A stretch of DNA of 64,000 nt from Omnitrophica bacterium GWA2_41_15. GTDB taxonomy: Bacteria > Omnitrophota > Gorgyraeia > Gygaellales > Profunditerraquicolaceae. The DNA is taken from contig CAKKQB010000013.1 in assembly GCA_919901915.1 (NCBI GenBank), forward strand, positions 64,192 through 128,191, in the 5' to 3' direction. The position numbers and the translations under genes were made by a program. Positions 6,086 through 56,238 of the stretch are shown here, piece by piece. The notes below the pieces were generated by a model. It was not told the origin of the DNA and made no database searches. It saw nothing but the letters and a program-made list of their open reading frames with translations. Numbering within the stretch: position 1 is the stretch's first letter; the number at the start of each line of letters is the position of its first letter.

Positions 6086-6122
6086 AAAAAAGATTTTTCC
6101 GTAAATAGGGACTGCCCGACTG

Positions 6123-6215
6123 GACCCCGGCTTCCGCCGGGGTGACGAGCTAACATTGTCATTCCCTCGGTCAGCCTCATTACCATCGTCGTCATTCCGG
6201 CGAAAGCCGGAATCC
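6123..6215. repeat. cluster of GC-rich capped hairpins (GACCCCGGCTTCCGCCGGGGTGAC and GTCATTCCGGCGAAAGCCGGAATCC)
   Basis: Hairpins at 6123-6146 and 6191-6215. The same two modules recur together at 56161-56218. Confidence 0.8.
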
Positions 6216-6298
6216 AGAAAGAAATCTTGTCCACCTCGTAGGCGCGCGCTTATCTTTACTCGTATTCACCTACCAGGTGGACTCTGGTTCCCTAAATG

Positions 6299-7991: not shown

Positions 7992-8024
7992 AGCAATATT
8001 AATTTAACACGAATTCTCATGGGG

Positions 8025-8197
8025 CTGTTGCGAAATGCCATTTTTCGTCATTCCGGCGAAAACCGGAATCCAGAACTCTTTGATTTTAATAGACTTATGG
8101 ATACCGGCGACCGAGGGCGAAATGACCGAGGAAGTGTCGGAGCCTAACTGGGCTCGACCTTTCGCCAATATGACGATTTTAATGTATTTTGCAACAG
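8025..8197. mobile_element. MITE-like element, copy 1 (173 bp, inverted ends CTGTTGCGAAAT...ATTTTGCAACAG)
   Basis: Near-identical to 51992-52164 along its full length. It has an internal GTCATTCCGGCGAAAACCGGAATCC hairpin. The + ORF 8035..8259 (MPFFVIPAKTGIQ...) is its translation. Confidence 0.75.
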
Positions 8198-8207
8198 CCC
8201 CCTCATG

Positions 8208-8255
8208 GATTTATCCGTGTTTATCCGTGTTCTTTTATCCGTGTCAATCCGTGTT
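8208..8255. repeat. B-type array: four TATCCGTGT motifs
   Basis: ggatttatccgtgtttatccgtgttcttttatccgtgtcaatccgtgtt lies directly 3' of the pilM-pilN stop. Same unit order as 14690-14736. Confidence 0.85.
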
Positions 8256-18916: not shown

Positions 18917-18922
18917 AATAAT

Positions 18923-19029
18923 TAGCGTAGAGCGTAGAGCGGATAGTAAAATTAGCATTTAGCGTAGAGCGTAGAGCGTTTAATAAAAGTCTTTTGCCTT
19001 TTCTCTACGCTCTACGCTATACGCTATCC
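18923..19029. repeat. A-type heptamer-array hairpin (AGCGKAK)n ... (MTMCGCT)n
   Basis: tagcgtagagcgtagagcggatag...agcgtagagcgtagagcg-loop-ctctacgctctacgctatacgctatcc. The right arm contains the carA stop. Confidence 0.85.
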
Positions 19030-20102
19030 TTCATCATCTCTATAAATTTCCCAAATAGGTATTTCGTATCATGCGGACCAGGAGATGCCTCGGGATGAAA
19101 CTGAACAGAAAAAACAGGCAATTTCTTATGCCGCATTCCTTCCAGGGTATCGTCATTTAAATTTATATGCGTAAGCTCTATATCTTTCTTATCCAAAGAA
19201 TCTATGTCCACGCAAAAACCGTGATTTTGCGCTGTTATACAAACTTTTCCTGTCTTTAAGTCCTTAACCGGATGATTCGCGCCATGGTGGCCGAATTTAA
19301 GTTTATAGGTTTTACCGCCAAAAGCAAGCCCTAACATCTGATGGCCAAGGCAGATTCCGAATATCGGCAATTTACCAATTAAGCCTCTTGTTGTTTCTAC
19401 AACATATTTTACTGCTGATGGATCTCCCGGGCCGTTAGAAAGCAAAACCCCGTCAGGTTTAAGCTCTAAAATATCCTCTGCTCTTGTTTCAGCCGGCACA
19501 ACTACTGCTTCGCAATTATGCTCAACGAGCTCTCTTAAAATATTATATTTTACCCCGCAATCAATCACTACAACCTTATATTTAGCTTTCTTTAAACTAG
19601 GCCAGATATATTTTTTGGCACAACTTACCTCTTTAACTAAGTCTATTCCCGTCAGTCCCAATGACTTTTTTACTTTTTCCACTAAACTCTTTTCATCCAA
19701 ATCTCGCGTAGATAAAACTGCCTTCATCGCGCCTTTTTCTCTGACATGCAAGGTTAGCGCTCTTGTATCTATCCCTTCAATACCCATGATATTATTTTCT
19801 TCTAAGTATTCTCCTAATGACTGCTCCTTGCGCCAATTACTGGCAATTTTACTATATTCTTTTACCGCGAATCCTTCCAGAAACAACCCTGCTGACTCTG
19901 TATCAAGCCTGTTTACGCCATAATTACCAATTAAAGGATACGTCATCGTAACAATCTGGCCTTTATAAGAAGGGTCTGTCAAGATCTCCTGATACCCTGC
20001 CATACTGGTATTAAAAACTATCTCGCCATAGCTTTCGCCAGAAGCGCCAAAAGATTTACCCCTAAATATCATTCCGTCTTCTAATACAAGAATTGCTTCC
20101 AT
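19017..20102 (-). CDS. carA: carbamoyl-phosphate synthase small (glutaminase) subunit
   Basis: 361 aa. CPSase_sm N-domain plus class I GATase triad (GICLGHQ, HPE). Confidence 0.95.
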   Translation of the reverse strand: MEAILVLEDGMIFRGKSFGASGESYGEIVFNTSMAGYQEILTDPSYKGQIVTMTYPLIGNYGVNRLDTESAGLFLEGFAVKEYSKIASNWRKEQSLGEYLEENNIMGIEGIDTRALTLHVREKGAMKAVLSTRDLDEKSLVEKVKKSLGLTGIDLVKEVSCAKKYIWPSLKKAKYKVVVIDCGVKYNILRELVEHNCEAVVVPAETRAEDILELKPDGVLLSNGPGDPSAVKYVVETTRGLIGKLPIFGICLGHQMLGLAFGGKTYKLKFGHHGANHPVKDLKTGKVCITAQNHGFCVDIDSLDKKDIELTHINLNDDTLEGMRHKKLPVFSVQFHPEASPGPHDTKYLFGKFIEMMKDSV

Positions 20103-20107
20103 ATTTT

Positions 20108-20137
20108 TAGCGTATAGCGGATAGCGTAGAGCGTATA
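20108..20137. repeat. A-type heptamer array, single arm
   Basis: tagcgtatagcggatagcgtagagcgtata; no complementary arm seen nearby. Confidence 0.75.
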
Positions 20138-20157
20138 ATAGTATAAATTATTATCTT

Positions 20158-22847: not shown

Positions 22848-23213
22848 ATGATTAACAAAAATAACAACATAGAGACGCCCCAGTGGGGCGTCTCTACAAA
22901 ATTCTTATCTTTAATTCTCTGCTTCTCTCTCCTACTTCAGCAGACAGGCTTGGCTCAGGCTCTGCCTTCTCTTTCTCAGCCTCAACCTCAGCCTTTGCTC
23001 CGCTATCTCTCCGTCAACTCCGCCAATCCCAATAATTATTTTAATTTCCTGATGGATAAGGGTAGTAACGTGTCATTGCGAAGAGGAGCGCTTTTTAGCG
23101 ACGACGAAGCAATCTTTTTACGAAGTAACTCTTTAAAAGATTGCTTCACCCTCGCTAACGCTCGGGTTCGCAATGACACATTACTTTCCACAATAATTAC
23201 GAATGACTCCTAA
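22848..23213 (+). CDS. doubtful ORF / gene remnant; signal-peptide-like segment flanked by repeat-derived sequence
   Basis: 121 aa. Residues ETPQWGVST derive from hairpin 22869-22897. The C-terminal 45 aa derive from palindrome 23072-23177. Only plus-strand candidate; weak RBS. Confidence 0.2.
   Translation: MINKNNNIETPQWGVSTKFLSLILCFSLLLQQTGLAQALPSLSQPQPQPLLRYLSVNSANPNNYFNFLMDKGSNVSLRRGALFSDDEAIFLRSNSLKDCFTLANARVRNDTLLSTIITNDS
23072..23177. repeat. GTCATTGCGA...TCGCAATGAC nested palindrome (core III)
   Basis: gtcattgcgaagagg...gaagcaatct...agattgcttc...gggttcgcaatgac. Confidence 0.8.
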
Positions 23214-29156: not shown

Positions 29157-29427
29157 GTAATAGTTCAGCTCTCGGAAGTACCCGTCGGTGTCATTGCGAG
29201 CCCGAAGGGCGAAGCAATCTCTTTAAAAAGATTGCTTCGTCGCTATCGCTCCTCGCAATGAGACTGCGTCATAATTCGGTTTTGGTGTCATTCCGGCGAA
29301 AGCCGGAATCCATTCTCCGGCAATAACACAACTCACTGGATTCCGGCTTTCGCCGGAATGACGAATTTTTAACGATTATGACACAGTCTGAATGACACAA
29401 GTACTTCCAAGAGCTGAACTATTACCT
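29155..29427. mobile_element. composite nested palindromic element with about 21-bp inverted ends TAGTTCAGCTCTYGGAAGTAC
   Basis: Ends at 29161-29181 and 29400-29420 with 1 mismatch. Inside are core III (29190-29262) and an inverted pair of core I hairpins (29287-29311, 29338-29362). Confidence 0.65.
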
Positions 29428-31319: not shown

Positions 31320-31402
31320 GAAAAATAAACACGAATTACCACGAATTTTCACCCCACACCAATACATTAGTAACCCGCTTTGTCGTATCGAGCGCTCTTT
31401 TT

Positions 31403-31468
31403 GGGCGAGCAAGCTCGCCCCTACGAATCGTCGTATACATCGCGTAGGGGTGGGCTTGCCCACCCTAT
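31403..31468. repeat. pair of GC-rich hairpins (GGGCGAGCAAGCTCGCCCCTACGA; GTAGGGGTGGGCTTGCCCACCCTAT)
   Basis: The first is repeated at 33208-33231 with the same T-rich 5' flank. Confidence 0.8.
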
Positions 31469-31527
31469 GTTGATTATTAAATTCGTAACTATGTTCACAA
31501 TAAATACAAAACAACGAAAATTTGCTA

Positions 31528-33186
<1,659 letters not shown>

Positions 33187-37700: not shown

Positions 37701-39386
37701 TGGGTCAATTGCCGGATTAGTAACCTGCGCGAATAACTGTTTAAAATAACTATAAAGCAACTGCGGCTTATCAGATAAAACCGCATGCGGGGTATCATTA
37801 CCCATTGAGCCATTCGGTTCATGAGAATCTTCCACCATAGGTTTAATGATAAATTTAAAATCCTCGCGGGTGTAACCGAAAGCTTTGAATAGAGTTAACG
37901 GATCTACTTTATTAGCGGATAGCGGATAGCTTTTATTAGCGTAGAGCGTAGAGCGTAAAGCGTAGAGCGTTTTGCTTTTCCTATCCGCTATACGCTCTAC
38001 GCTATCCGCTGATAATTTATCCAACTCTAACATATTTTTTTTAAGCCATTCTCCATACGGCTTAGAGCTTGCCATTGTTTCTTTTATTTCCTTATCTTCA
38101 ATTATGCGGCCTTCTTCTGTATCAACAAAAAGCATCTTTCCCGGTTCAAGCCTTCCTGAGATAGAAATATCATCCGGCGCGATATCTAAAACCCCTGCCT
38201 CTGAAGCCATAACTACCAAATTCTTTTTGGTCACAATATAGCGGCTAGGCCTTAAACCATTTCTGTCTAAAACCGCGCCAATCCTTACGCCATCAGTAAA
38301 GGCAATGGCTGCCGGTCCATCCCAGGACTCAATAAGACAAGTGTGGTATTTATAAAAATCTCTTACATTTTGACTCAAAAGATTATTCTGCTCCCAAGCG
38401 CTGGGTATTAACATCATCATCGCGTGAGACAAAGATCTACCCGATAAAACTAAAAGTTCAAAAACATTATCAATAGCCGCGGAATCGCTTCCCCCGGGAA
38501 CAATCACCGGAAAAATTTCCTTTAAATCCTTACCAAATAATTTACTTTTTAGTAAACCTTGGCGGGCAGTCATCCAATTTATATTCCCTTTTAAGGTATT
38601 TATCTCTCCATTATGCGCCAAGAACCGAAAAGGCTGCGCCAGATCCCAAGTGGGAAAAGTATTGGTACTATAACGGGAATGCACTAAACAAATCGCGCTT
38701 TGAAGAGCGCTGTCTTTTAAATCCAAAAAGAATTTCTCCAACTGCTCAGGCATAAGCAGGCCTTTATAAGAAAGCGTGCGGCAAGAAAGATTAGTAATAT
38801 AAAAAAATGATTTTTGTTTTAAGAATAAAGAGCGGATTTCGTTTTCTATTTTCTTGCGGATAATATAAAGCCTGCGCTCAAAATCAAGGCCATCCTTACC
38901 TATACTTAGACCTTTACCTTTACCTATAAAAACCTGCTCAATCACCGGTTGAGTAAGCTTTGCGGTTTTGCCAATCGCGGAATTATCAACCGGGACAATC
39001 CGCCAACCAAGCAAGGCCTGGCCCTCTTCTTTAATAATTCTAGCAAAGATACCCTTACATAACGCGCGCTCTTTTTTGTTAGTGGGAAGAAATACCATGC
39101 CTATCCCATAATCGCCAGAGGACGGTAAAATAAAATTTTCCTTCGCGCAGGCTTTTGCCAAAAATTCATGTGGCGCCTGAATAAGTATGCCTGCGCCATC
39201 CCCGGTCTCTGGGTCGGCGCCAGTTGCCCCGCGATGAGAAAGACGGCCTAAAACCTCCATGCCCTGTTTAATAATTTCATAAGATTTTTTGCCTTTGACA
39301 TCGCAAACAAATCCTACGCCGCAGGAATCATGTTCAAAACGGGAATCATACAACCCGTATTTTTCTAATTTCTGACGATTATCCAT
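34743..39386 (-). CDS. gltB: glutamate synthase large subunit
   Basis: 1547 aa. Ntn Cys (DSCGVGF), central domain, FMN domain and GXGXG domain. Contains two repeat-derived inserts. Confidence 0.95.
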   Translation of the reverse strand: MDNRQKLEKYGLYDSRFEHDSCGVGFVCDVKGKKSYEIIKQGMEVLGRLSHRGATGADPETGDGAGILIQAPHEFLAKACAKENFILPSSGDYGIGMVFLPTNKKERALCKGIFARIIKEEGQALLGWRIVPVDNSAIGKTAKLTQPVIEQVFIGKGKGLSIGKDGLDFERRLYIIRKKIENEIRSLFLKQKSFFYITNLSCRTLSYKGLLMPEQLEKFFLDLKDSALQSAICLVHSRYSTNTFPTWDLAQPFRFLAHNGEINTLKGNINWMTARQGLLKSKLFGKDLKEIFPVIVPGGSDSAAIDNVFELLVLSGRSLSHAMMMLIPSAWEQNNLLSQNVRDFYKYHTCLIESWDGPAAIAFTDGVRIGAVLDRNGLRPSRYIVTKKNLVVMASEAGVLDIAPDDISISGRLEPGKMLFVDTEEGRIIEDKEIKETMASSKPYGEWLKKNMLELDKLSADSVERIADRKSKTLYALRSTLYANKSYPLSANKVDPLTLFKAFGYTREDFKFIIKPMVEDSHEPNGSMGNDTPHAVLSDKPQLLYSYFKQLFAQVTNPAIDPIREELVMSLDTYLGPQKNILDEQPRHCHKLLVKNPILTNEDLKKIHDIKKNGFKTKTISLLFNISEKNNFKKALDRICKETEAAIKEGFTFVILSDQGINKDKACLSALLATACVHQDLVRKALRTQVSIIVQSASPREVHHFALLFGYGADCINPYLAYEAAAFLIRDKEVDLDLESAIKHYIKAVDKGILKILSRMGISTLQSYRGAQIFEALGLSSEVIDKYFTGTVSRIGGIDLGIIEKEALLRHKEAFAVDGLQRPFLATGGLYQWKKDGEFHLWNPDSIAALQGAVRNNDSKKYQEFAKLINDQSSNPATLRSLFKFKEVKPIPIEEVEPVSEIVRRFVTGAMSFGSISKACHETIAIAMNRLGGRSNTGEGGEDPARFVAFPNGDSKRSAIKQVASGRFGVITNYLVNADELQIKIAQGAKPGEGGQLPGHKVSAAIAKIRYTTPGVTLISPPPHHDIYSIEDLAQLIFDLKNVNPRARVSVKLVSEIGVGTIATGVAKGHADMILISGGDGGTGASPLSSIKHAGLPWELGIAETHQTLVLNDLRSRVRLQVDGGMRTGRDVAVAALLGAEEFGFCTSVLVVLGCVMLRHCHLNNCSLGVATQDELLEKRFSGKPEYVENYFRFIAQELRQIMSSLGIVKIDDLIGRADLLEVNSKILPWKAKKIDFSRILYQPKGNGRASHSPSRKPEGSGLAPYKQDYGIDNILDRKLIELARGALENRKPIKIELSIRNHNRSVGTMLSGEVCRIFGEDGLPANTIHFKFKGVAGQSFGAWLAKGVTLELEGLTNDYVGKGMSGGKIIIYPDRQSNYKVEENIIIGNTTFYGAILGSAYIRGIAGERFCIRNSGLYAVVEGVGDHACEYMTGGRVVVIGRTGRNFAAGMSGGIAYVWDKDGDFKNKCNMEMVILEAVAEEDARTIEKLLSNHYHYTRSSSAKNILDNFTPELKKFVKVMPIEYKRVLGGRKTEEKIELVEASDG
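35597..35658. repeat. E-type palindromic element inside gltB (in frame, linker between FMN and C-terminal domains)
   Basis: ccaaaccactgccctctggcttgcggctcgggctatgggaagcccgaccattgccctttggc encodes QPKGNGRASHSPSRKPEGSGL. Confidence 0.7.
37911..38010. repeat. A-type heptamer-array hairpin inside gltB (in frame)
   Basis: attagcggatagcggatagc...tagcgtagagcgtagagcgtaaagcgtagagcg-loop-ctatccgctatacgctctacgctatccgct encodes SADSVERIADRKSKTLYALRSTLYANKSYPLSAN. Confidence 0.85.
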
Positions 39387-39389
39387 ATT

Positions 39390-39558
39390 TTTAGCGTATA
39401 GCGTATAGCGTAGAGCGTAGAGCGTATAGCGTATAGCGTAGAACGTAGAGCGTAGAGCGGATAGCGGATAGTAAAAATCTATGTTTTAACTATATGTTAT
39501 CCGCTATTCCTACACGCTTTCTTTCCTATCCGCTAAACGCTATACGCTCTACGCTAAT
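39390..39558. repeat. A-type heptamer-array hairpin, largest copy (left arm about 11 units)
   Basis: tagcgtatagcgtatagcgtagagcgtagagcgtatagcgtatagcgtagaacgtagagcgtagagcggatagcggatag, then a loop, then a degenerate complementary arm. Confidence 0.85.
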
Positions 39559-39589
39559 ATAAAATACCTCATAGACCTACGAGGCATAT

Positions 39590-44635: not shown

Positions 44636-44659
44636 CCTCTTATTTTTAATGTTTTAGTA

Positions 44660-44732
44660 TTTAGCGGATAGCGTATAGCGTATATATAGGTTTTACTATC
44701 CGCTATACGCTCTACGCTATACGCTATACGCT
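44660..44732. repeat. A-type heptamer-array hairpin
   Basis: tttagcggatagcgtatagcgtata-loop-tatccgctatacgctctacgctatacgctatacgct. The right arm contains the nfnA stop. Confidence 0.85.
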
Positions 44733-45569
44733 TGATATTTTAAGATTACAGATATGCTTTTCTTTATCTAAATAAACACTGTTCCTCTTTGTCAATTCAT
44801 CCCAATTTACTTGAGTTCCGTCAAATTCCGGGCCATCAACGCAAGCAAATTTCGTCTTACCTGCCACAGTTACACGGCAACAGCCGCACATTCCAGTAGC
44901 ATCTACCATCAAAGGATTCAAAGAAACAATGGTTTTAACTTTAAAATCGCTAGCAACCTCGCAAACTCTTCTCATCATCGGTATCGGGCCGACTGCGTAA
45001 ATTAGCGAATAGCGGATAGCGGATAGTGAATAGCTTAATACCTCCTGCAAAATATCAGTAACAAAGCCTTTCCTGCCGCAAGAACCGTCATCAGTGGTTA
45101 TATAAAGCTCATCGCAAAACACCTTTAGCTCCTGCTCCAAAATCAATAAATCATTGTTTCTTGCGCCCAGTATAGTAGTAGTATGGTTTCCCGCTTCTTT
45201 CAAAGCCTTGGCAACCGGATAAATCTCCGCAATTCCTACGCCTCCGCCTACAAGAATTAAATTTCCAAAATTTTTAATCTCAGTAGCATGCCCCAGGGGC
45301 CCGGCCAAAGCGTATAATGAATCACCAACCTCCATCTTGCCCAGCAACTTAGTAGTTAAGCCAACCTCTTGAAAGATCAAGGTAATTGTGCCTATGTCAG
45401 AATTTTTATCTACTATAGTTAGAGGTATCCTTTCGCCTTCCTCGCATACCATAAGAACAACAAATTGGCCCGGTCTTACTTTCCTGGCAATAAGCGGGCT
45501 TAAGATTTCAAAGCGCTTAATTGTTACGTCTTGCGTTTGTGCTAAAATTTCTTTTTTGATTATCCGCAT
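44724..45569 (-). CDS. nfnA: NfnA/SudB-like FAD/NAD-binding ferredoxin-reductase-type subunit (PyrK family)
   Basis: 281 aa. Has RPGQFV, GGGVGIA and a C-terminal 2Fe-2S Cys cluster (GMCGCCRV...CVDGPEF). Confidence 0.75.
   Translation of the reverse strand: MRIIKKEILAQTQDVTIKRFEILSPLIARKVRPGQFVVLMVCEEGERIPLTIVDKNSDIGTITLIFQEVGLTTKLLGKMEVGDSLYALAGPLGHATEIKNFGNLILVGGGVGIAEIYPVAKALKEAGNHTTTILGARNNDLLILEQELKVFCDELYITTDDGSCGRKGFVTDILQEVLSYSLSAIRYSLIYAVGPIPMMRRVCEVASDFKVKTIVSLNPLMVDATGMCGCCRVTVAGKTKFACVDGPEFDGTQVNWDELTKRNSVYLDKEKHICNLKISSV
45001..45035. repeat. A-type heptamer array (single arm) inside nfnA, in frame
   Basis: agcgaatagcggatagcggatagtgaatagc encodes SYSLSAIRYSLIY. Confidence 0.7.
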
Positions 45570-45607
45570 AGAAAAAATTGATTACCGAAAGAAAAGGATT
45601 CGTTGAT

Positions 45608-45728
45608 GGGACTGTTGTGAAATACCAAACCTTGCGTCATTCTGAGGCCGAAAGCCGAAGAATCTCGACGCTGATAAGATCCTTCGCTTCGCTCAGGATG
45701 ACGAAAAAGGGTATTTCGCAACGGTCCC
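45608..45728. mobile_element. MITE-like element, short variant (ends GGGACTGTTGTGAAATACC / GGTATTTCGCAACGGTCCC)
   Basis: Same end family as 8025-8197 and 51992-52164, but with core II inside (gtcattctgaggccgaaagccgaagaatc...gctcaggatgac). Confidence 0.75.
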
Positions 45729-45740
45729 TTGATCGGAATC

Positions 45741-46484: not shown

Positions 46485-47642
46485 TTAACGATTCCTCTTC
46501 AAAAAACTTTCTATTCTACTTAACGCCTCTTTCAAATTATCAAAACTTGCGGCATAGGATATGCGAATATTGTCCGCGAACTGAGCGCCAAAAGCTGTGC
46601 CCGGAATAACCGCGACCTTTTCCTCCTTTAAAAGCTGTTGGCAAAAATCCATCGCCTTAAGACCGCTGCTTTTTATGCTGGGAAAAGCATAGAAAGCACC
46701 CTGCGGCTTTGAACACTCAAGGCCGATGCGATTCAGCTCACTAACCACAAACTCTCTTCTTCGTTTATATTCACGCTTCATCTCTTCCACTGATTTTCTG
46801 CCTGAATGCATCGCTTCAGAAGCAGCTATTTGAGAAGTAATAGACACGCACATAATGGTATACTGATGAATCTTAGTCATAGCCGCGATAATCTCTTTTG
46901 GGCCGCAAGCAAAGCCCACACGCCAGCCAGTCATCGCGTAACTTTTGGAAAAACCATCAAGATAAACAGTCGAATTTTTTGCTTGAGGCAATGTCGCGAA
47001 AGGCGTATGAGTAAAATCATACGTCAAATCTCCATAAACCTCATCGCTGATACAAAGCAGATTATACTTCAACGCGATCTTCTTAATTTCCTCTAATTCT
47101 TTTTTAGTATAAGATACGCCCGTAGGATTAGTAGGGTAGTTCAATATAATTGCTTTAGCTTTCTTGTCTATGCTCTTCTCCAAGCTTTCCGGTGTAAGCT
47201 TAAAATTGTTTTTACTTGTATCGATATAAACAGGTATACCGCCGGCTAATTCACTAACCGGGCCGTAAGAAACATAACATGGCTCGGGTATAATTATTTT
47301 ATCACCCGGATTTATAATGGAACGCAAAACTAAATCCAAAGCCTCGCTTACCCCAACAGTAATCAAAATCTCTTCATCCGGACAATAATCCAAACCGTAT
47401 TTATTTTTTAGGTATTGTGAAATGGTCAGCCTTAATTTATACAAGCCCTTATTTGAGGTGTAAGAGGTAAAACCCTCTTCTAATGAAGCTATCCCTGCTT
47501 CGCGTATCTGCCAAGGCGTAACAAAATCCGGCTCACCCACGCCAAGGGAAATTACATCCTTCATGCCTAATACTAAATCAAAAAACGCGCGAATTCCGGA
47601 GGGATGCATTTGCTTAACTTTTTCGGAAACCAAATCTTTCAT
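46485..47642 (-). CDS. class I/II PLP-dependent aminotransferase (AspC-like)
   Basis: 385 aa. Has NPTG and the PLP lysine motif SKSYAMTGWRVG. Confidence 0.9.
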   Translation of the reverse strand: MKDLVSEKVKQMHPSGIRAFFDLVLGMKDVISLGVGEPDFVTPWQIREAGIASLEEGFTSYTSNKGLYKLRLTISQYLKNKYGLDYCPDEEILITVGVSEALDLVLRSIINPGDKIIIPEPCYVSYGPVSELAGGIPVYIDTSKNNFKLTPESLEKSIDKKAKAIILNYPTNPTGVSYTKKELEEIKKIALKYNLLCISDEVYGDLTYDFTHTPFATLPQAKNSTVYLDGFSKSYAMTGWRVGFACGPKEIIAAMTKIHQYTIMCVSITSQIAASEAMHSGRKSVEEMKREYKRRREFVVSELNRIGLECSKPQGAFYAFPSIKSSGLKAMDFCQQLLKEEKVAVIPGTAFGAQFADNIRISYAASFDNLKEALSRIESFLKRNR

Positions 47643-47649
47643 CGTTTTC

Positions 47650-47716
47650 AGCGTTTAGCGGATAGCGTTTAGCGTATAGTTTTTTTTATCCGCTATACGC
47701 TCTACGCTATACGCTA
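47650..47716. repeat. A-type heptamer-array hairpin
   Basis: cagcgtttagcggatagcgtttagcgtatag-ttttttt-tatccgctatacgctctacgctatacgcta. Confidence 0.85.
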
Positions 47717-48202
47717 TTAATACGATATAGCTATCCTCTTATTCTCTTCCCTGTGCTTCAAAATCACTCCATCTTCCTTATATTTTTTTAATAAAAAGTG
47801 CGTGACTATGCCGCGGATATTCTCGAGGCAAGAAAGTTTCTCCGCTACAAATTGTGAAACTTTTTGTAAATTCTTGCCCTCAACTATAACCAAAAGGTCA
47901 TACGTGCCGGAAATCAAGCAACAGTCAGTTACCTCCGGAAACGAATAAATACGCTCAGCAATTTTATCAAAACCAATATCCTTTTGCGGAGCAATATTAA
48001 CCTCTATCAAAGCCCTGACGGAAGGCTCTTCGGTTTTAATTAAATCCTTATTTATTACTGTTTTATATTTTAAAATTATCCCCTCTTTTTCATACTTTTT
48101 TATCGCCTCTTTTATTGCCTCCGGCTTTTTCTTTAACATTTTCGCGATCTCTTCCGGAGTTACAAGCGCGTTCTTTTCTAATATCTCTAATATTTCGTCC
48201 AT
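47717..48202 (-). CDS. Lrp/AsnC family transcriptional regulator
   Basis: 161 aa. An HTH, then a RAM/AsnC_trans_reg domain. Confidence 0.85.
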   Translation of the reverse strand: MDEILEILEKNALVTPEEIAKMLKKKPEAIKEAIKKYEKEGIILKYKTVINKDLIKTEEPSVRALIEVNIAPQKDIGFDKIAERIYSFPEVTDCCLISGTYDLLVIVEGKNLQKVSQFVAEKLSCLENIRGIVTHFLLKKYKEDGVILKHREENKRIAISY

Positions 48203-49815: not shown

Positions 49816-49832
49816 TTATCAAAAACCACCCT

Positions 49833-49903
49833 GTCATTCTGAGGCCCTGAAGGGGCCGAAGAATCTCGACGCTAATAAGATCCTTCGCTTCGCTCAGGAT
49901 GAC
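49833..49903. repeat. core II capped hairpin without MITE ends, overlapping the mnmG 3' end
   Basis: gtcattctgaggccctgaaggggccgaagaatctcgacgctaataagatccttcgcttcgctcaggatgac; compare 45636-45702. Confidence 0.8.
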
Positions 49904-51773
49904 AAAAATGAGATATTTTCTTCAAATACACCATTAAAATAGAAATGGCCGCGGGCGTTACTCCGGAAATTCGCGAAGCCTGGCCCAGATTTAATGGCCT
50001 AAACTTACTTAGCTTTTCTTTAACCTCTCTCGAAAGGCTATTGATAGCAGTATAATCCAACCCCTCCGGAAGCCTGATTTTTTCTAAATTTTTAAATCTC
50101 TCCACATCCTTTAATTGCCTCCGGATAAATCCCGCGTATTTTACCTCAATTTCAATCTGACGTAAAGCTAATTCCGGAAAATTATTGAAAAAATCCTCCT
50201 GGCACAAGTTTTTTAATTTCTCGATGTCAATCTGCGGCCTTTTTAAGAGCTCCTCAAGAGTTACGGATTTCTTTAAAGGAGAACTACTATATTGGGTCAG
50301 CTTATCATTGACCTCCCGCGTTGGCTTAAGACGCGTATTTCTTATACAATTAAAACCTTCGGTTATCGCGTCTTTTTTCCTTTGTAATTTTTCATAATCC
50401 TTGCTATTTACCAATCCTAAATCATACCCTATTTTTCCAAGGCGTAAATCCGCGTTATCTTCGCGCAAGATCAAGCGATATTCCACGCGCGAAGTAAACA
50501 TCCGGTATGGCTCAAGAGTTCCCTTAATAGTTAAATCATCTATCAATACGCCAATATAGCTGGTCGCGCGATCCAAAATCAATGCCTCCTTAGATTTTAC
50601 TCTTAAGGCCGCGTTTATTCCCGCGATTAAACCCTGGGCTGCTGCTTCCTCATAACCGGTAGTGCCATTAATTTGTCCGGCAAAATATAAATTCTTAATC
50701 AATTTTGTTTCTAAAGAAAGCTTTAGCTGGGTAGGCTCTGCCACAGTATGCTCTATTCCATAACCAAAACGAATAATTTTAGCATTCTCTAATCCTTCAA
50801 TTGAATGTATTAAGTCCGATTGCGCGTCTTCAGGCAAACTTGTGGACAGGCCATTCGGATACACCTCATCCGTAGACAAACCTTCTAGCTCCAGAAACAC
50901 CTGGTGCCTTTCTTTATCAGAAAATTTAACAATTTTGTCTTCAACTGACGGACAATAGCGGACTCCCGTTGCCTTGATAAGGCCGGTATAGAGCGGAGAA
51001 CGGCATAAATTATCAAGAATAATTTTATGAGTTCTTTTATTTGTATAGGTTATATGGCAGGGAACTTGTTTTTGTATTAACTTTTCACTTGAAAAAGAAA
51101 ACGCTCGCGCCGGATTATCCCCTTCCTGAACTATAAGCTTAGAAAAATCTATTGTATTCTTATCTAAGCGGCTGCAGGTCCCGGTTTTAAATCTAAGCAA
51201 ATAGAAACCTAACTCCTTTAGGTTATTTGTCAGGCCTATCGCCGCTGGCTCATTGATGCGCCCCGCGCTAAAAGACTTAAGGCCAACATAGATTAAGCCA
51301 TCTAAAAACGTGCCCGGACAGATAACCACGGTTTTGGATAAAATCTCCTCGTCCTTACTCGTAACCACCCCCATCACTATATTATCAGAAACTACCAATC
51401 TTTTTACCTCCGCCTCTTTGATAAAAAGATTTTCCTGTTTCTCCAATATTTCCTTCATATACTGGCTGTATATTTCCATATCCACCTGCGCGCGGGATGA
51501 TTGCACAGCCGGCCCCTTAGAGGCATTAAGAATTCTAAACTGAATTCCGCTAAAATCAGCGGCCTTCGCCATTTGCCCGCCCAAGGCATCAATCTCTTTT
51601 ACAAGCTGGCCCTTGCCTACTCCGCCAATCGCCGGATTACAGCTCATCAAGCCTATTGTTTTCACGCTCAAAGTAATAATAAGCGTCTTGCAGCCCATCC
51701 GCGCTGAAGCCAACCCTGCCTCAATTCCAGCATGGCCGGCGCCAATAATTATAACGTCGTAATTTTGAGTCAT
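49872..51773 (-). CDS. mnmG: tRNA uridine-5-carboxymethylaminomethyl modification enzyme MnmG (GidA)
   Basis: 633 aa, YDVIIIGAGHAGIEA. The tail CHPERSEGSY is encoded by repeat 49833-49903. Confidence 0.95.
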   Translation of the reverse strand: MTQNYDVIIIGAGHAGIEAGLASARMGCKTLIITLSVKTIGLMSCNPAIGGVGKGQLVKEIDALGGQMAKAADFSGIQFRILNASKGPAVQSSRAQVDMEIYSQYMKEILEKQENLFIKEAEVKRLVVSDNIVMGVVTSKDEEILSKTVVICPGTFLDGLIYVGLKSFSAGRINEPAAIGLTNNLKELGFYLLRFKTGTCSRLDKNTIDFSKLIVQEGDNPARAFSFSSEKLIQKQVPCHITYTNKRTHKIILDNLCRSPLYTGLIKATGVRYCPSVEDKIVKFSDKERHQVFLELEGLSTDEVYPNGLSTSLPEDAQSDLIHSIEGLENAKIIRFGYGIEHTVAEPTQLKLSLETKLIKNLYFAGQINGTTGYEEAAAQGLIAGINAALRVKSKEALILDRATSYIGVLIDDLTIKGTLEPYRMFTSRVEYRLILREDNADLRLGKIGYDLGLVNSKDYEKLQRKKDAITEGFNCIRNTRLKPTREVNDKLTQYSSSPLKKSVTLEELLKRPQIDIEKLKNLCQEDFFNNFPELALRQIEIEVKYAGFIRRQLKDVERFKNLEKIRLPEGLDYTAINSLSREVKEKLSKFRPLNLGQASRISGVTPAAISILMVYLKKISHFCHPERSEGSY

Positions 51774-51823
51774 TCGTAAATATTATGAAGTAATTATCGT
51801 AAATATTTAATAGACAACCTGAT

Positions 51824-51987
51824 AACGAAAGTTCCTGTTTGCGCACGAAATTTTTTGCCATGCGCTACGGTTTACTCCTCGTTTCCGCAGTGACTTACCA
51901 AAAAAAACAAGTGCTCCAACTCGTCGTAAATCCTTGCGCACATTTGGCAAAAAAATTTCTAATTGTGCGCAAACAGGAACTTTCGTT
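51824..51987. mobile_element. 164-bp MITE-like element with perfect 23-bp terminal inverted repeats
   Basis: AACGAAAGTTCCTGTTTGCGCAC (51824-51846) and GTGCGCAAACAGGAACTTTCGTT (51965-51987). Further imperfect internal complementarity. Confidence 0.7.
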
Positions 51988-51991
51988 GAGT

Positions 51992-52164
51992 CTGTTGCGA
52001 AATGCCATTTTTCGTCATTCCGGCGAAAGCCGGAATCCAGAACTCTTTGATTTCAATAGGCTTATGGATACCGGCGACCGAGGGCGAAATGCCCGAGGAA
52101 GTGTCAGAGCCCAACTGGGCTCGACCTTTCGCCGGTATGACGGTTTTAATGTATTTCGCAACAG
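51992..52164. mobile_element. MITE-like element, copy 2 (173 bp)
   Basis: Collinear with 8025-8197, differing by a few substitutions. It starts 4 nt after the 51824-51987 element. Confidence 0.75.
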
Positions 52165-52280
52165 TCCCTCGTTATCTGACAACCATCATTTTTTATCACA
52201 TTATTTACGAAAGAACCATAATTTTCCATATAAATTAAAAAAAATGCTATAATTTAGATTCTTTCGTATTTAAAATAATC

Positions 52281-52310
52281 CGTAGGGGCGGTTCGTGAAC
52301 CGCCCTTACG
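52281..52310. repeat. GC-rich hairpin CGTAGGGGCGGTTCGTGAACCGCCCTTACG
   Basis: Related copy at 59738-59761 (GTAGGGGCGGTTCGCGAACCGCCC). Confidence 0.8.
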
Positions 52311-52353
52311 ACGAAACATAAATCATTGAAACGGTTGATTGGCGCGTTTAATA

Positions 52354-53637
52354 TTATTCTCTCGCGCTTTTCACGAGGAGAGGCATGATATCCCGGCCAA
52401 GAAGCTCGCCAAGCGAACCAAGCGATGCCGCTTTTTCAGAAAAACTTAAAGAACCGTCGGGCTTAATGTTTCCACCCGAGATAAGCAAAGGAACGGGGTC
52501 AGAGGAATGGGCTTTTATGACGCAAACAGTAGAATGATCCGCGGTTACAGCAATAATCGTATTGTTTATATCTATTTTTGGCAAAAAGCTTGAAAAAAAA
52601 TACTTATCTATCGCTTCAATAATGTCTTTCTTTTTATTAAAATCTCCGTCGTGCGCTGGCTCATCAGGGCCTTTGATATGCACATAAATACCATCATATT
52701 TCTTCATTGATTCCAAAGCCACCTTAGCCCAAACAGGATAATCCACATCTAAATGCCCGCTTGCATCAGGAACATCAATTATATCCATACCTGTTAATAA
52801 GGCAATCCCTTTTTCTACAGGCATCTGCACAAATGAACCAAACTTTACATCGTAAAAACTCTGAATAGGGGGAAATTTAGGGATGTGGTCCCCCGCGTCA
52901 CGCGATAAAATCACATTGCCGGGCATCTTATTTTCAGAAATCCTCTTTTTATTAACTAAGGAATCATTTAAAACTTTATGGGATTTCTGGGTAAATTCAT
53001 TTAAAAGCGCGGCCGCCTCCTTTGACTCGGGTGAATTCTCGTATCCGGGCATAGGAATTGACTCAACCACAAAATTCTCAAATTTCTCCTTGGCAACACC
53101 AAACACACCCTCCCTGTCATACGCGGGATCAGTATTAGTAATCCATCCGGATAATCTAGAGCGAACCCCTCTTATCACCAAAATTCCGCGATGCCCAATA
53201 GTACTTTTAAATTCAAAAGTCGCGCTTGAAAGCGTAACCTTTGAATTAATTTCTTTTGATAAAGCGACAGCCTCTTCAGTGGTAAGATTTCTTCCCACGC
53301 GCCTATCCTTAATTGTCAAGCCATCTGGCGCCACTGTGGCAAAATTAACCCGGAAAGCCACATCACCATCATTTACAACCAACCCTTCCGCGAAAGATTC
53401 TAAGGGCCCTCTGCCTGTATAATATTTGTGCGCGTCATAGCCTAAAAGACTGATTACCGCGATATCCGACTCCGGAGCAATTCCCTTAGCAACAGGATAA
53501 ACAATACCGGTTCTGCCTTTTTGAGCAAGACGATCAAGATTAGGCGTTAAAGCCGCCTCTAAAGGAGTTTTATTACCTAATTCCTTAACCGGTAAATCAC
53601 CTAAACCATCGAGAACTATATAAATAATTTTTTTCAT
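52354..53637 (-). CDS. apgM: cofactor-independent phosphoglycerate mutase, archaeal-type
   Basis: 427 aa, alkaline-phosphatase-superfamily pattern (ILDGLGD...ADHS). Confidence 0.85.
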   Translation of the reverse strand: MKKIIYIVLDGLGDLPVKELGNKTPLEAALTPNLDRLAQKGRTGIVYPVAKGIAPESDIAVISLLGYDAHKYYTGRGPLESFAEGLVVNDGDVAFRVNFATVAPDGLTIKDRRVGRNLTTEEAVALSKEINSKVTLSSATFEFKSTIGHRGILVIRGVRSRLSGWITNTDPAYDREGVFGVAKEKFENFVVESIPMPGYENSPESKEAAALLNEFTQKSHKVLNDSLVNKKRISENKMPGNVILSRDAGDHIPKFPPIQSFYDVKFGSFVQMPVEKGIALLTGMDIIDVPDASGHLDVDYPVWAKVALESMKKYDGIYVHIKGPDEPAHDGDFNKKKDIIEAIDKYFFSSFLPKIDINNTIIAVTADHSTVCVIKAHSSDPVPLLISGGNIKPDGSLSFSEKAASLGSLGELLGRDIMPLLVKSARE

Positions 53638-53642
53638 ATTTT

Positions 53643-53700
53643 ATTAGCGCGGATAGCGTTTAATTTTTTCTATACGCTATACGCTCTACGCTATACGCTA
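53643..53700. repeat. A-type heptamer-array hairpin
   Basis: ttagcgcggatagcgttta-atttttt-ctatacgctatacgctctacgctatacgcta. Confidence 0.85.
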
Positions 53701-53710
53701 AAACTTTTAT

Positions 53711-56068: not shown

Positions 56069-56160
56069 TTTTTTTCTCCCTATCGTATTACATTTGACAC
56101 TATCATATTACACGTATTGTCAAAAGTATTTAGTTAATTCTTTTATATCTGCTGGCTCTT

Positions 56161-56218
56161 GTCATTCCGGCGAAAGCCGGAATCCAGTCTTCTGGACCCC
56201 GGCTTTCGCCGGGGTGAC
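56161..56218. repeat. core I hairpin + GACCCCGGCTTTCGCCGGGGTGAC hairpin in the nrdJ leader
   Basis: Same module pair as 6123-6215. Confidence 0.8.
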
Positions 56219-56238
56219 ATCTTAAATTTTCTATAATA

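What the first reader, a model, noticed from the sequence alone, without database searches (positions are those of the whole stretch)
51992..52164. MITE-like family with GGGACTGTTGCGAAAT inverted ends, three copies with two different cargo hairpins
8025-8197 and 51992-52164 are collinear 173-bp copies differing by a few substitutions. 45608-45728 shares the same termini but carries a different internal palindrome (core II instead of core I). Copy 1 sits inside the pilus operon, between pilM-pilN and pilO.

No transposase is present in the window. Shared ends with swapped cargo suggest modular, non-autonomous elements mobilised in trans.
Basis: seen in the sequence. Interest (0 to 1): 0.5.

Follow-up and report, generated by a model that had tools for sequence, protein, structure and literature searches.

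The report
IS5-type MITEs carrying REP hairpin pairs
Three short, gene-less mobile DNA elements in this uncultured bacterium have the end sequences of IS5-family insertion sequences and carry inside them pairs of "CGTC-tagged" palindromic repeats (the kind called dRS3 in Neisseria): a known type of element in an uncommon and informative combination.

Summary
The true limits are 8021-8201, 45608-45728 and 51988-52168; two copies were drawn 4 bp short at each end. Each copy has 16-bp terminal inverted repeats (GGGRCTGTTGCGAAAT) and a perfect 5-bp target-site duplication (CTCAT, TTGAT, TCGTT). The chance of a 5/5 flank match is about 0.002 per site.

The same 16-mer forms the ends of complete 1.1-1.35-kb insertion sequences in other genomes. 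These encode 319-328-aa IS5-family DDE transposases. It also bounds 100-175-bp MITEs with 5-bp duplications in several phyla.

No transposase lies in the window or in the rest of the contig that I could reach.

The "cargo hairpins" are head-to-head dimers of CGTC-tagged REPs. Core I fits the published CGTC-1 family, which includes Neisseria dRS3. The same dimers also occur in the window without these ends.

Copy 3 sits inside the terminal repeat of another MITE-like element. Removing it and one duplication restores that repeat 26/26, which serves as an internal empty site.

A similar arrangement, CGTC-1 dimers inside a closely similar palindrome, was reported in Halothiobacillus neapolitanus but not linked to IS5.

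Verdict: a genuine IS5-derived MITE family. The kind is ordinary. It is moderately interesting because CGTC REPs have no known transposase.

The parts
8021..8201 (.). MITE copy 1 (181 bp, core I cargo). TIR-L is GGGGCTGTTGCGAAAT at 8021-8036; TIR-R is ATTTTGCAACAGCCCC at 8186-8201.
   Evidence: It lies between the PilM(-N) gene (8256-9980, minus strand) and the next minus-strand gene.
8016..8020 (.). Left copy of the 5-bp target-site duplication CTCAT of copy 1. The right copy is at 8202-8206.
8046..8175 (.). Cargo of copy 1: a head-to-head dimer of CGTC-tagged REPs. The left unit is 8046-8073. The right, eroded unit is 8148-8175. A 74-bp structured spacer separates them.
   Evidence: Family definition is from PMC3733652.
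45608..45728 (.). MITE copy 2 (121 bp, core II cargo). TIR-L is GGGACTGTTGTGAAAT; TIR-R is ATTTCGCAACGGTCCC.
   Evidence: It starts 7 nt after the stop of the GAF-ANTAR gene and ends 33 nt before the next gene.
45603..45607 (.). Left copy of the 5-bp duplication TTGAT of copy 2. The right copy is at 45729-45733.
45635..45703 (.). Cargo of copy 2: a CGTC-tagged REP heterodimer (units 45635-45664 and 45678-45703). The same unit stands alone at 49832-49904.
   Evidence: (family D15, 96%).
51988..52168 (.). MITE copy 3 (181 bp, core I cargo; this is the finding's own copy). TIR-L is GAGTCTGTTGCGAAAT; TIR-R is ATTTCGCAACAGTCCC.
   Evidence: It lies between the phosphoglycerate mutase gene and mnmG.
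51983..51987 (.). Left copy of the 5-bp duplication TCGTT of copy 3. The right copy is at 52169-52173.
52013..52142 (.). Cargo of copy 3: a CGTC-1-type REP (CGTC-ATTCCGGC-GAAA-GCCGGAAT-CCAG, 52013-52040) paired with an eroded partner (52115-52142).
51821..52176 (.). Host MITE-like element ('shell C'; TIR GATAACGAAAGTTCCTGTTTGCGCAC), into whose right terminal repeat copy 3 is inserted.
   Evidence: Deleting 51988-52173 restores a 26/26 inverted repeat.
29261..29389 (.). Probable diverged relative (129 bp; ends AGACTGYGTCATAAT; flanks CAATG/GAATG). It carries a perfect CGTC-1 homodimer (29286-29363) and is nested in another TIR shell (29157-29425).
   Evidence: (flank similarity to the MITE arms, p about 0.02).
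31527..31542 (-). Solitary TIR-like 16-mer GAGACTGTTGCGTAAT (2 mismatches). It supplies the last four codons and the stop codon of pyrG.
   Evidence: No partner end was found.

Best explanation

Each consists of two parts:

- an outer 'shell': the 16-bp terminal inverted repeat GGGRCTGTTGCGAAAT plus about 10 nt of loosely conserved spacer on each side;
- an inner head-to-head dimer of CGTC-tagged REP hairpins.

Proposed mechanism: an IS5-family DDE transposase (DUF772 + DDE_Tnp_1, about 320 aa), encoded elsewhere in the genome or now lost, binds the two ends. It moves the whole unit and inserts it at a 5-bp staggered cut, which produces the 5-bp duplication.

The two subfamilies differ only in which REP dimer sits between the arms. 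Homology between them runs through the arms to the shared CGTCAT head and then stops. The cargo was therefore either acquired independently or exchanged between REP dimers at their common heads.

Shown here: the ends, the duplications, the identity of the ends with those of IS5-family elements, the absence of a transposase locally, and the independent existence of the cargo.

Inferred: transposition in trans in this genome, the route of cargo exchange, and any effect on neighbouring genes. The copies look old (7% divergence, 1-2 mismatches in four of the six end repeats, none in the other two).
For: 1. All three copies have perfect 5-bp duplications. The chance per site is 0.00205, so about 9e-9 for three.
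2. Copy 3 interrupts the terminal repeat of another element. Excising it with one duplication restores that repeat 26/26.
3. The exact 16-mer ends complete insertion sequences:
   - L071, Bauldia, 1162 bp; its transposase scores 285 bits on NCBIfam NF033581 (IS5 family), with DUF772 + DDE_Tnp_1.
   - L080, Phenylobacterium, 5-bp repeat CTGGG.
   - L212-L216, 1334 bp, ends GGGGCTGTTGCGAAAT / GGGACTGTTGCGAAAT, 320-aa P0082.
   - L217, 328-aa P0077, 147 bits against a cutoff of 140, 5-bp repeat TACTA.
   - L231 and L233-L242, two further lineages.
   - L211 and L105, Margulisiibacteriota: exact end plus a DUF772 gene remnant.
4. In other genomes, 12 of 28 short elements with paired ends have perfect 5-bp duplications, and 3 more match 4/5. 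Many carry CGTC/TGTC-REP dimers of other subfamilies.
5. Subfamily I also occurs in Candidatus Omnitrophica CG1_02_40_15. Its hairpin stem differs by a paired change, CCGGC/GCCGG to CCCGC/GCGGG.
6. Short-read contigs of the same population break 30-40 nt inside copies 2 and 3, as expected for multi-copy DNA.
7. Relatives with 67-80% identical ANTAR proteins show no convincing copy of the end repeat in 648 kb. Their apgM-mnmG spacer is 96-150 bp in five of seven loci, against 580 bp here.
8. IS5-family ends published for ISNme1 and ISPg1 (GAGACCTTTGCAAAA) resemble this end.
Against: - No partner transposase was found in the window, in the rest of the contig that I could reach, or in 648 kb of relatives. 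Trans-mobilisation in this lineage is therefore unproven.
- No base-precise empty site was found in another genome. The intergenic DNA of the nearest relatives does not align.
- Several autonomous elements on short metagenome contigs show no duplication (L212, L231, L233-L241). The P0066-element contigs (L233-L242) combine shared left flanks with different right flanks and may be chimeric.
- Two alphaproteobacterial copies have 6-bp rather than 5-bp repeats.
- Copies 1 and 3 differ at 13 of 181 positions and the hairpins of copy 1 are eroded. There is no sign of recent activity or of selection on structure.
Confidence: 0.85

Rival explanations
1. The outer inverted repeat is not a transposon end. 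It is a resident 'target palindrome' into which CGTC-REP dimers insert, which is how the similar Halothiobacillus neapolitanus arrangement was read in the literature. On this view the REP dimer is the mobile part and the shell is passive.
For: - PMC3733652 reports all H. neapolitanus CGTC-1 dimers inside a 41-bp palindrome, GGGaaGCTT-GAAAaACC..GGTaTTTCgAAGC-gCCC, and calls it a target.
- Cargo-free minimal palindromes made of the outer 11 bp exist (L020, L028, L076).
- REP dimers of at least four subfamilies sit 9-12 nt from the end repeat.
- CGTC dimers in this window also lie inside two unrelated TIR shells.
Against: - The 5-bp duplications flank the shell, not the REP dimer.
- The shell ends are identical to those of IS5-family insertion sequences that carry a transposase.
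- Shells with non-REP cargo also have 5-bp duplications (L013, L021, L089, L091, L093, L098).

This rival explains how the cargo arrived and may be true in addition. It does not explain how the whole unit spread.
Confidence: 0.06
2. The whole element is a REPIN/BIME-type unit moved by a RAYT (an IS200/IS605-like tyrosine HUH transposase) acting on single-stranded hairpins.
For: The interior is an inverted REP pair, which is the REPIN architecture. GTAG-type REP-like hairpins also occur in the window, at about 31380-31470.
Against: - From my own knowledge of the family, HUH transposition leaves no target duplication and needs no terminal inverted repeats.
- The published survey found no tyrosine transposase associated with CGTC repeats.
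- No such gene is recorded in the window.
Confidence: 0.03
3. It is a Tn3-family derivative (a 'TIME'), suggested by ends that start GGGG and by 5-bp duplications.
For: A 5-bp duplication and a GGG(G) terminus. That these are Tn3-family hallmarks is from my own knowledge.
Against: - The conserved end is 16 bp and is identical to IS5-family element ends.
- No Tn3-type 38-bp repeat ending in TAAG is present (my own knowledge of the Tn3 consensus, compared).
Confidence: 0.02
4. It is a host-selected structured RNA or DNA element (an mRNA stabiliser, processing site, attenuator or terminator) rather than a selfish element.
For: - The folds are very stable: -86 kcal/mol as minus-strand RNA (z = -8.4), and -50.5 and -32.2 kcal/mol as DNA (z = -8.8 and -6.9).
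- All copies lie between co-directional genes.
- One compensatory stem change is seen between genomes.
Against: - No Rfam family matches.
- No promoter-like or terminator-like site lies inside the elements.
- Relatives lack the element at the same gene junctions.
- Substitutions in copy 1 break stems.
- The duplications and the IS ends explain its presence without any function.

A secondary effect on transcripts is not excluded.
Confidence: 0.03

Closest known systems
IS5-family-derived MITEs (for example Neisseria ATR elements attributed to ISNme1, and Porphyromonas gingivalis BrickBuilt/MITE239 with ISPg1-type ends; PMC4596501)
   Same: Short and non-coding. The ends match those of IS5-family elements. 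Only the ends resemble the parent IS. Short target duplications. Located between genes. The published IS5 end GAGACCTTTGCAAAA resembles GGGACTGTTGCGAAA.
   Different: The end sequence, the parent IS lineage and the host phyla all differ. The duplication here is consistently 5 bp, whereas BrickBuilt showed variable lengths. The interior is a pair of GC-rich REP hairpins rather than AT-rich filler or a minisatellite.
CGTC-tagged REPs, family CGTC-1 (Di Nocera et al. 2013, PMC3733652), which includes Neisseria dRS3 / NIME units
   Same: Core I is CGTC + an 8-bp stem starting AT + a 4-nt loop + a CCA tail, arranged as head-to-head dimers. This is exactly the published CGTC-1 definition. N. gonorrhoeae and Niveispirillum carry the same CGTCAT..hairpin..CCAG / CTGG..hairpin..ATGACG architecture.
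   Different: This applies only to the cargo. Here the dimers are enclosed by IS5-type ends with target duplications, and they are not arranged in NIME arrays. Core II has a longer stem with GA mismatches and does not fit any of the four families cleanly.
[quoted passage not shown]
   Same: The layout is the same, and the outer palindrome is visibly similar: GGGaaGCTT-GAAAaACC ... GGTaTTTCgAAGC-gCCC against GGGACTGTTGCGAAATACC ... GGTATTTCGCAACGGTCCC.
   Different: That paper treated the palindrome as an insertion target and reported neither a duplication nor a link to an insertion sequence. I could not inspect the H. neapolitanus genome here.
REPINs / BIMEs mobilised by RAYTs
   Same: Inverted pairs of REP hairpins that fold into one long hairpin, in many intergenic copies.
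   Different: REPINs carry a GTAG tag, have no terminal inverted repeats outside the REPs and no target duplication, and are associated with a tyrosine transposase. None of these applies to the shell.
Correia elements (CREE) of Neisseria
   Same: MITE of about 100-160 bp with terminal inverted repeats, often between genes, forming RNA hairpins.
   Different: The paper read here gives 51-bp inverted repeats bounding the element; from my own knowledge they make a TA duplication. There is no sequence similarity, and no parent IS is known.

Membership tests
MITE (non-autonomous DDE-type transposable element) | Small size (about 50-1000 bp) and no coding capacity | tested here: met
   121 and 181 bp. 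The gene callers place no gene in them. The only overlapping ORF is a mechanical one, 51839-52252 on the plus strand.
MITE (non-autonomous DDE-type transposable element) | Terminal inverted repeats | tested here: met
   16-bp ends with 0-2 mismatches to GGGACTGTTGCGAAAT in all six arms. The arms are alignable for about 31 nt.
MITE (non-autonomous DDE-type transposable element) | Target-site duplication of fixed length | tested here: met
   5 bp, perfect, in 3 of 3 copies (chance 0.002 each), and in 12 of 28 paired-end elements elsewhere.
MITE (non-autonomous DDE-type transposable element) | Multiple dispersed copies in one genome | tested here: inconclusive
   Three copies plus one diverged relative and one solitary end in 64 kb, and none in a further 13 kb of the contig. 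Short-read contigs break inside the copies. A whole-genome count was not possible.
MITE (non-autonomous DDE-type transposable element) | Filled and empty sites | tested here: inconclusive
   Internal evidence only: excising copy 3 restores the 26/26 repeat of its host element. Relatives lack the elements, but their spacers do not align.
IS5-family derivative | Ends match those of autonomous elements encoding an IS5-family DDE transposase | tested here: met
   An exact 16-mer bounds L071, L212-L216 and L211. One- or two-mismatch versions bound L217, L231, L233-L242 and L209. The transposases hit NF033581, DUF772 and DDE_Tnp_1.
IS5-family derivative | Same duplication length as the autonomous partner | tested here: inconclusive
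   5 bp in L217 and L080. 6 bp in L071 and L209. None visible in L212, L231 and L233-L241; the L233-L242 contigs have inconsistent flanks and may be chimeric.
IS5-family derivative | Partner transposase present in the same genome | not testable with these tools
   Only about 77 kb of the 95-kb source contig could be read, and it holds no IS5 transposase.
CGTC-tagged REP, family CGTC-1 (cargo, core I) | Unpaired CGTC (or TGTC) tag, 8-bp stem beginning AT, 4-nt loop, CCA tail | tested here: met
   CGTC-ATTCCGGC-GAAA-GCCGGAAT-CCAG at 52013-52040, 6190-6217 and elsewhere, compared with the definition.
CGTC-tagged REP, family CGTC-1 (cargo, core I) | Predominantly head-to-head dimers, in many intergenic copies | tested here: met
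   Dimers at 8046-8175, 29286-29363, 52013-52142 and 56160-56219. A different arrangement, with the tagged ends facing inward, lies at 6120-6217.
CGTC-tagged REP (cargo, core II) | Fits one of the four published CGTC families | tested here: not met
   The tag and the AT-initial stem are present. However, the stem is interrupted by GA/GA mismatches and the loop region is longer. It is CGTC-tagged but matches none of the four families as described.
REPIN/RAYT system | GTAG tag, no target duplication, associated tyrosine transposase | tested here: not met
   The tag is CGTC, 5-bp duplications are present, and no such gene is in the window. The literature finds no RAYT linked to CGTC repeats.
Neisseria NIME array | Arrays of dRS3 (ATTCCC-N8-GGGAAT) alternating with RS segments | tested here: not met
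   The hairpin is ATTCC-N10-GGAAT here, and exactly ATTCCC-N8-GGGAAT in L030. Units occur as single dimers, not arrays.

The most novel reading that the evidence does not exclude
IS5-type (and other) TIR shells may be a general vehicle for CGTC-tagged REP dimers, which have no known transposase. On this reading, REP dimers repeatedly enter the centre of small TIR-bounded MITEs and are then copied by DDE transposases. This would help to explain the spread of near-identical dRS3-like hairpins across Neisseria, Alphaproteobacteria, Omnitrophota and others.

In this window, five of about nine CGTC dimers lie inside three different TIR shells. The H. neapolitanus 'target palindrome' would then be the same IS5-type shell.
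Probability: 0.2. Interest if true: 0.65.

Novelty: new variant of a known kind. Interest (0 to 1): 0.4.

Why it matters
- CGTC-tagged REPs, including Neisseria dRS3, are abundant in several phyla, but the 2013 survey that defined them found no dedicated transposase. Here, such dimers sit inside units that have the ends of IS5-family elements and clean 5-bp duplications. This gives a concrete and testable route for at least part of their spread. It also reinterprets a published oddity, the H. neapolitanus palindromes.
- On the practical side, these elements break short-read assemblies and generate spurious ORFs.
- They also place RNA hairpins of up to -86 kcal/mol (181-bp copy) between co-transcribed genes, including genes of a type IV pilus cluster, where they may affect transcript processing. 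That effect is untested.

Tried and rejected
- Rfam scan of the window: only a tRNA.
- Promoter and terminator scans around copies 1 and 3: nothing inside the elements.
- Literature search for the raw sequence motifs: only primer coincidences and one N. gonorrhoeae sequence.
- Search for a base-precise empty site. Exact-protein look-ups returned only the same contig and short contigs that break in the repeats. The metagenome scan with the ANTAR protein gave 80 relatives (67-80% identity), but their spacers do not align.
- Viral contig scan for the end repeat: 11 isolated hits, no paired ends, looks like chance.
- Phage collection search for the core I hairpin: no match.
- Test of whether stand-alone CGTC dimers are decayed MITEs. 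Flanks of 49832-49904, 56160-56219 and 23071-23177 are no more similar to the MITE arms than random DNA (p = 0.2-0.9). Only 29286-29363 is (p about 0.02).
- A survey of 'dimer inside a TIR shell' frequency across fetched loci was abandoned. Those loci had been selected by the end repeat, so the sample is biased.
- Duplications around autonomous copies on short metagenome contigs were uninformative. The P0066-element contigs combine shared left flanks with different right flanks, which suggests chimeric assembly.
- The first hit on the L105 remnant, IS1182 (E = 1e-6), was superseded. Full-length relatives are 320-328-aa IS5-family proteins.
- The organism could not be named. tblastn of window proteins against the named genome loci gave nothing useful.
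Full report
**1. The observation.**

The three stretches were read directly. Copies 1 and 3 are collinear: the repeat finder pairs 8020-8201 with 51987-52168 at 93%, and 168 of 181 positions are identical. Copy 2 shares only the ends.

The 16-mer GGGACTGTTGCGAAAT occurs 8 times at up to 3 mismatches, against 0.6 expected, and no shuffle out of 100 reached 8. Six of these hits are the three inverted pairs. The seventh, 31527-31542, has 2 mismatches and overlaps the last codons of pyrG. The eighth, with 3 mismatches, looks like chance.

The elements have 49-51% G+C in a 40.5% window. They fold into long hairpins: -50.5 and -32.2 kcal/mol as DNA, and -86 kcal/mol as minus-strand RNA, with z-scores from -6.9 to -8.8.

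**2. Corrected anatomy.**

With limits of 8021-8201, 45608-45728 and 51988-52168, every copy is flanked by a perfect 5-bp direct repeat: CTCAT, TTGAT and TCGTT. Random pairs of sites at the same spacing in this window share 5/5 flanking bases 0.2% of the time. Three out of three is therefore about 9e-9.

The arms of the two subfamilies are alignable for about 31 nt, through a loosely conserved spacer (RCCATTTTTC-like), up to the motif CGTCAT. Similarity then stops.

**3. An internal empty site.**

On the gene strand, copy 3 is followed immediately by AACGAAAGTTCCTGTTTGCGCAC. The reverse complement of this sequence lies about 140 bp further on.

Removing copy 3 and one copy of its duplication (51988-52173) joins GATAACGA to AAGTTCC... 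This restores a 26/26 inverted repeat, GATAACGAAAGTTCCTGTTTGCGCAC, belonging to a second MITE-like element of about 170 bp. That element has a 7-bp direct repeat, GACAACC, one base outside each end.

The intact arm of this host element thus shows what the interrupted arm looked like before insertion. I regard this as the strongest single piece of evidence for insertion by staggered cleavage.

**4. What the ends belong to.**

From the stated 596 billion bases I calculate that chance alone would give several hundred hits in that collection, so the count means nothing. The content of the loci does.

(a) *Short paired-end elements.* Elements of 100-175 bp with paired ends and perfect 5-bp duplications occur in Omnitrophota, Elusimicrobia, Margulisiibacteriota, a Rickettsiales MAG, and Alpha- and Gammaproteobacteria MAGs. 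Twelve of 28 paired elements are perfect and three more match 4/5.

(b) *Contig ends.* Many hits sit at contig ends, which is typical of multi-copy insertion sequences.

(c) *Complete elements.*

| Locus | Size | Ends | Transposase | Direct repeat |
|---|---|---|---|---|
| L071 (Bauldia) | 1162 bp | exact 16-mer | 319-aa ORF; 285 bits on NCBIfam NF033581 'IS5 family transposase' (cutoff 140); DUF772 + DDE_Tnp_1 | 6 bp |
| L080 (Phenylobacterium) | not determined | exact 16-mer | IS5-like ORF of about 320 aa | CTGGG (5 bp) |
| L209 (Mesorhizobium plasmid) | 1144 bp | GGGCCTGTTGCGTAAT | IS5 family | 6 bp |

(d) *Gene remnants.* In L105 and L211 (Margulisiibacteriota) the exact end is followed by a DUF772 gene remnant.

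A profile of those remnants retrieved 575 proteins at E<1e-10. The great majority of those listed are 320-328 aa with DUF772 + DDE_Tnp_1, and most lie on contigs of 1.1-2 kb. Fetching their DNA showed four further elements:

- A 1334-bp element bounded by GGGGCTGTTGCGAAAT and GGGACTGTTGCGAAAT (L212-L216). L214 is a contig that runs exactly from end to end.
- A 1237-bp element with GAGCCTGTTGCGAAAT and the 5-bp duplication TACTA (L217). Its left end is almost identical to the contig-end sequences of an Omnitrophota MAG (L041, L066).
- Two more lineages (L231; L233-L242) with GGGACTGTTGCAAAAT and GGGTCTGTTGCGAAAT.

P0077 passes the NF033581 cutoff (147 against 140). P0082 is just below it (137).

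At least five transposase lineages of the IS5 family therefore use this end. Published IS5-family ends (ISNme1, ISPg1: GAGACCTTTGCAAAA) are visibly similar.

Duplications around the autonomous copies are 5 bp (L217, L080) or 6 bp (L071, L209). They are not visible on several short metagenome contigs. In the L233-L242 set, left and right flanks are combined inconsistently, so I treat those contigs as uninformative.

**5. No partner here.**

The window is part of a 95-kb ENA contig (ERZ1292638 NODE_67). Sibling accessions are labelled Hain-H41 and Hain-H43.

Pfam families on record for the called genes of the window, and of 13 kb beyond it, include no transposase. tblastn with seven IS5 proteins finds nothing. 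No further end repeats occur in the extra DNA.

Short-read contigs of the same population end 30-40 nt inside copies 2 and 3, as expected where a repeat branches the assembly graph.

In 648 kb from 80 relatives (ANTAR protein 67-80% identical) there is no convincing end repeat. The apgM-mnmG spacer is 96-150 bp in five of the seven loci that preserve that junction, against 580 bp here. The ANTAR-downstream spacer is 94-148 bp and lacks the element in three of the loci that keep that junction.

The insertions are therefore lineage-specific. The spacers are too diverged for a base-precise empty site.

**6. What the cargo is.**

*Core I* is CGTC-ATTCCGGC-GAAA-GCCGGAAT-CCAG. It is paired with an inverted, partly eroded partner across a 74-bp structured spacer. 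The same hairpin occurs four more times in the window without the IS5-type ends: at 6190-6217, as a perfect dimer at 29286-29363, and at 56160-56219.

*Core II* stands alone at 49832-49904, 96% identical over 54 nt.

Di Nocera et al. (PMC3733652) defined 'CGTC-tagged REPs'. Their CGTC-1 family has an unpaired CGTC tag, an 8-bp stem beginning AT, a 4-nt loop and a CCA tail, is mostly arranged as head-to-head dimers, and includes Neisseria dRS3. Core I meets every one of these features.

The closest matches to core I in the plasmid collection are these:

- 23-27 sites per record in two N. gonorrhoeae chromosomes filed as plasmids;
- 9-10 sites per replicon in Niveispirillum.

Read out, both show the same CGTCAT-hairpin-CCAG ... 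CTGG-hairpin-ATGACG layout. The copy of subfamily I in Candidatus Omnitrophica CG1_02_40_15 carries ATTCCCGCGAAAGCGGGAAT. This fits the dRS3 consensus ATTCCC-N8-GGGAAT exactly, and it differs from the window's hairpin by a paired stem change.

*Core II* is CGTC-tagged, but GA/GA mismatches interrupt its stem. It fits none of the four published families.

**7. Precedent for the combination.**

The same paper notes that all H. neapolitanus CGTC-1 dimers lie 'within 41 bp palindromic sequences' with the consensus GGGaaGCTT-GAAAaACC--...GGTaTTTCgAAGC-gCCC. It also notes that such palindromes are never found empty, and it reads them as insertion targets.

That consensus is recognisably the same kind of end as GGGACTGTTGCGAAATACC...GGTATTTCGCAACGGTCCC. 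[quoted passage not shown]

My results add three things: the outer palindrome is an IS5-family end pair, the composite has 5-bp target duplications, and shells with this end carry REP dimers of several subfamilies as well as unrelated cargo.

In this window, CGTC dimers also sit inside two other shells:

- 29261-29389, with ends AGACTGYGTCATAAT and flanks CAATG/GAATG. Its arms resemble the MITE arms (p about 0.02).
- The element that encloses it, 29157-29425, with ends GTAATAGTTCAGCTCTYGGAAGTAC.

Stand-alone dimers show no trace of decayed ends. The shell is therefore not the only context in which these dimers occur.

**8. Mechanism and rivals.**

*Best explanation (0.85).* This is an IS5-derived MITE whose interior is a CGTC-REP dimer, moved in trans by an IS5-family DDE transposase that makes a 5-bp staggered cut.

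How the cargo differs between subfamilies is inferred. Either REP dimers entered the centre of a small shell more than once, or dimers were exchanged by recombination at the shared CGTCAT/ATGACG heads.

*Rivals.*

- The 'passive target palindrome' reading explains cargo arrival, but not the duplications outside the shell or the identity with IS ends.
- RAYT/REPIN mobility is contradicted by the duplications and by the lack of any associated tyrosine transposase.
- A Tn3-type origin is contradicted by the identity of the end.
- A selected RNA function is not needed. It is also not supported by Rfam, by motif scans, by conservation in relatives, or by the stem-breaking substitutions in copy 1. 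A side effect on transcripts remains possible.

**9. Context and state.**

All three copies lie between co-directional minus-strand genes:

- after the PilM(-N-like) gene of a type IV pilus/T2SS-like cluster (PilM confirmed, 'pilO' not);
- 7 nt after the stop of a GAF-ANTAR gene;
- between the phosphoglycerate mutase gene and mnmG.

Three features suggest old insertions: 7% divergence between copies 1 and 3, one or two mismatches in four of the six end repeats, and eroded hairpins in copy 1. The nearest relative of subfamily I is in an Omnitrophica MAG, so an Omnitrophota origin is my guess, not a result.

**10. Verdict.**

The kind of element is known: a MITE of the IS5 family.

The interest lies in the cargo, a REP superfamily without a known transposase enclosed in a DDE-type vehicle. 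This reinterprets a published observation and can be tested directly.

Noticed in passing
window 18913-19049, 20098-20140, 37903-38027, 39382-39559, 44641-44754, 44993-45035, 47639-47732, 53634-53709: Many intergenic regions hold tandem arrays of 7-bp units (AGCGTAT/AGCGGAT/AGCGTAG), usually followed by the inverted array (CTATCCG/CTATACG/CTCTACG). Together they form long imperfect palindromes. Relatives have the same layout at the apgM-mnmG junction with quite different heptamers: GTTCATA.. in L135/L160, CGCAAAG.. in L191/L192, GCTCCAG.. in L163. No explanation was sought.
   Followed up: partly
window 51821-52176 (interrupted by 51988-52173): A second MITE-like element of about 170 bp with perfect 26-bp terminal inverted repeats (GATAACGAAAGTTCCTGTTTGCGCAC). 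A 7-bp direct repeat, GACAACC, lies one base outside each end. It is the host of MITE copy 3.
   Followed up: partly
window 29157-29425: A nested composite. The outer shell has 25-bp inverted repeats (GTAATAGTTCAGCTCTYGGAAGTAC) and encloses a TGTC-tagged GTCATTGCGAG-type REP dimer (29189-29261 plus). The last bases of that dimer are split by a 129-bp element (29261-29389) carrying a perfect CGTC-1 homodimer.
   Followed up: partly
window 31527-31542 (minus strand): A solitary IS5-type end, GAGACTGTTGCGTAAT, provides the last four codons (E-T-V-A) and the TAA stop of the CTP synthase gene. No partner end was found downstream.
   Followed up: partly
window 31375-31470 and 52283-52315: GTAG-tagged REP-like hairpins (for example CGTAGGGGCGAGCTTGCTCGCCC and GTAGGGGTGGGCTTGCCCACCC; CCGTAGGGGCGGTTCGTGAACCGCCCTTACG). 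The genome therefore carries both published REP superfamilies.
   Followed up: no
window 8207-8254, 13984-14031, 14687-14758, 15175-15222: Arrays of an 8-bp unit, TATCCGTG, in spacers of the pilus-like gene cluster. One begins 6 bp after MITE copy 1.
   Followed up: no
window 14714-15013 and 15178-15477: A 300-bp direct duplication at 100% identity, 464 bp apart, spanning small ORFs of the pilin-like region.
   Followed up: no
window 571-617 and 9765-9811: A 47-nt inverted repeat (87% complementary), 9.1 kb apart, bracketing the PilB-like ATPase to PilM part of the cluster. Not examined.
   Followed up: no
L146 versus L202 (relatives), apgM-mnmG spacer: Both carry a MITE-like element with ends GGGACGGTTCTCAACTC.. 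L202 has an extra insertion of about 177 bp inside it, with a CGTC-like hairpin and a terminal ..CTGTTGCGAATGTAT. This is a filled/empty pair for a different element.
   Followed up: no
L036/L047 (Saganbacteria MAG) versus L212-L216 (protein labelled Ignavibacteria): The left ends (about 97-135 nt) of the 1334-bp IS5-family element are nearly identical in assemblies assigned to different phyla. This suggests recent horizontal transfer or binning error.
   Followed up: no
L001, L016, L018, L044, L054, L061, L071, L080, L099 (Alphaproteobacteria): Every copy of the alphaproteobacterial IS has a run of C's 4-6 nt before its left end. In L080 the target reads as a palindrome, CCTCCCC-CTGGG-GGGAGG. 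This suggests a preference for a structured target.
   Followed up: no
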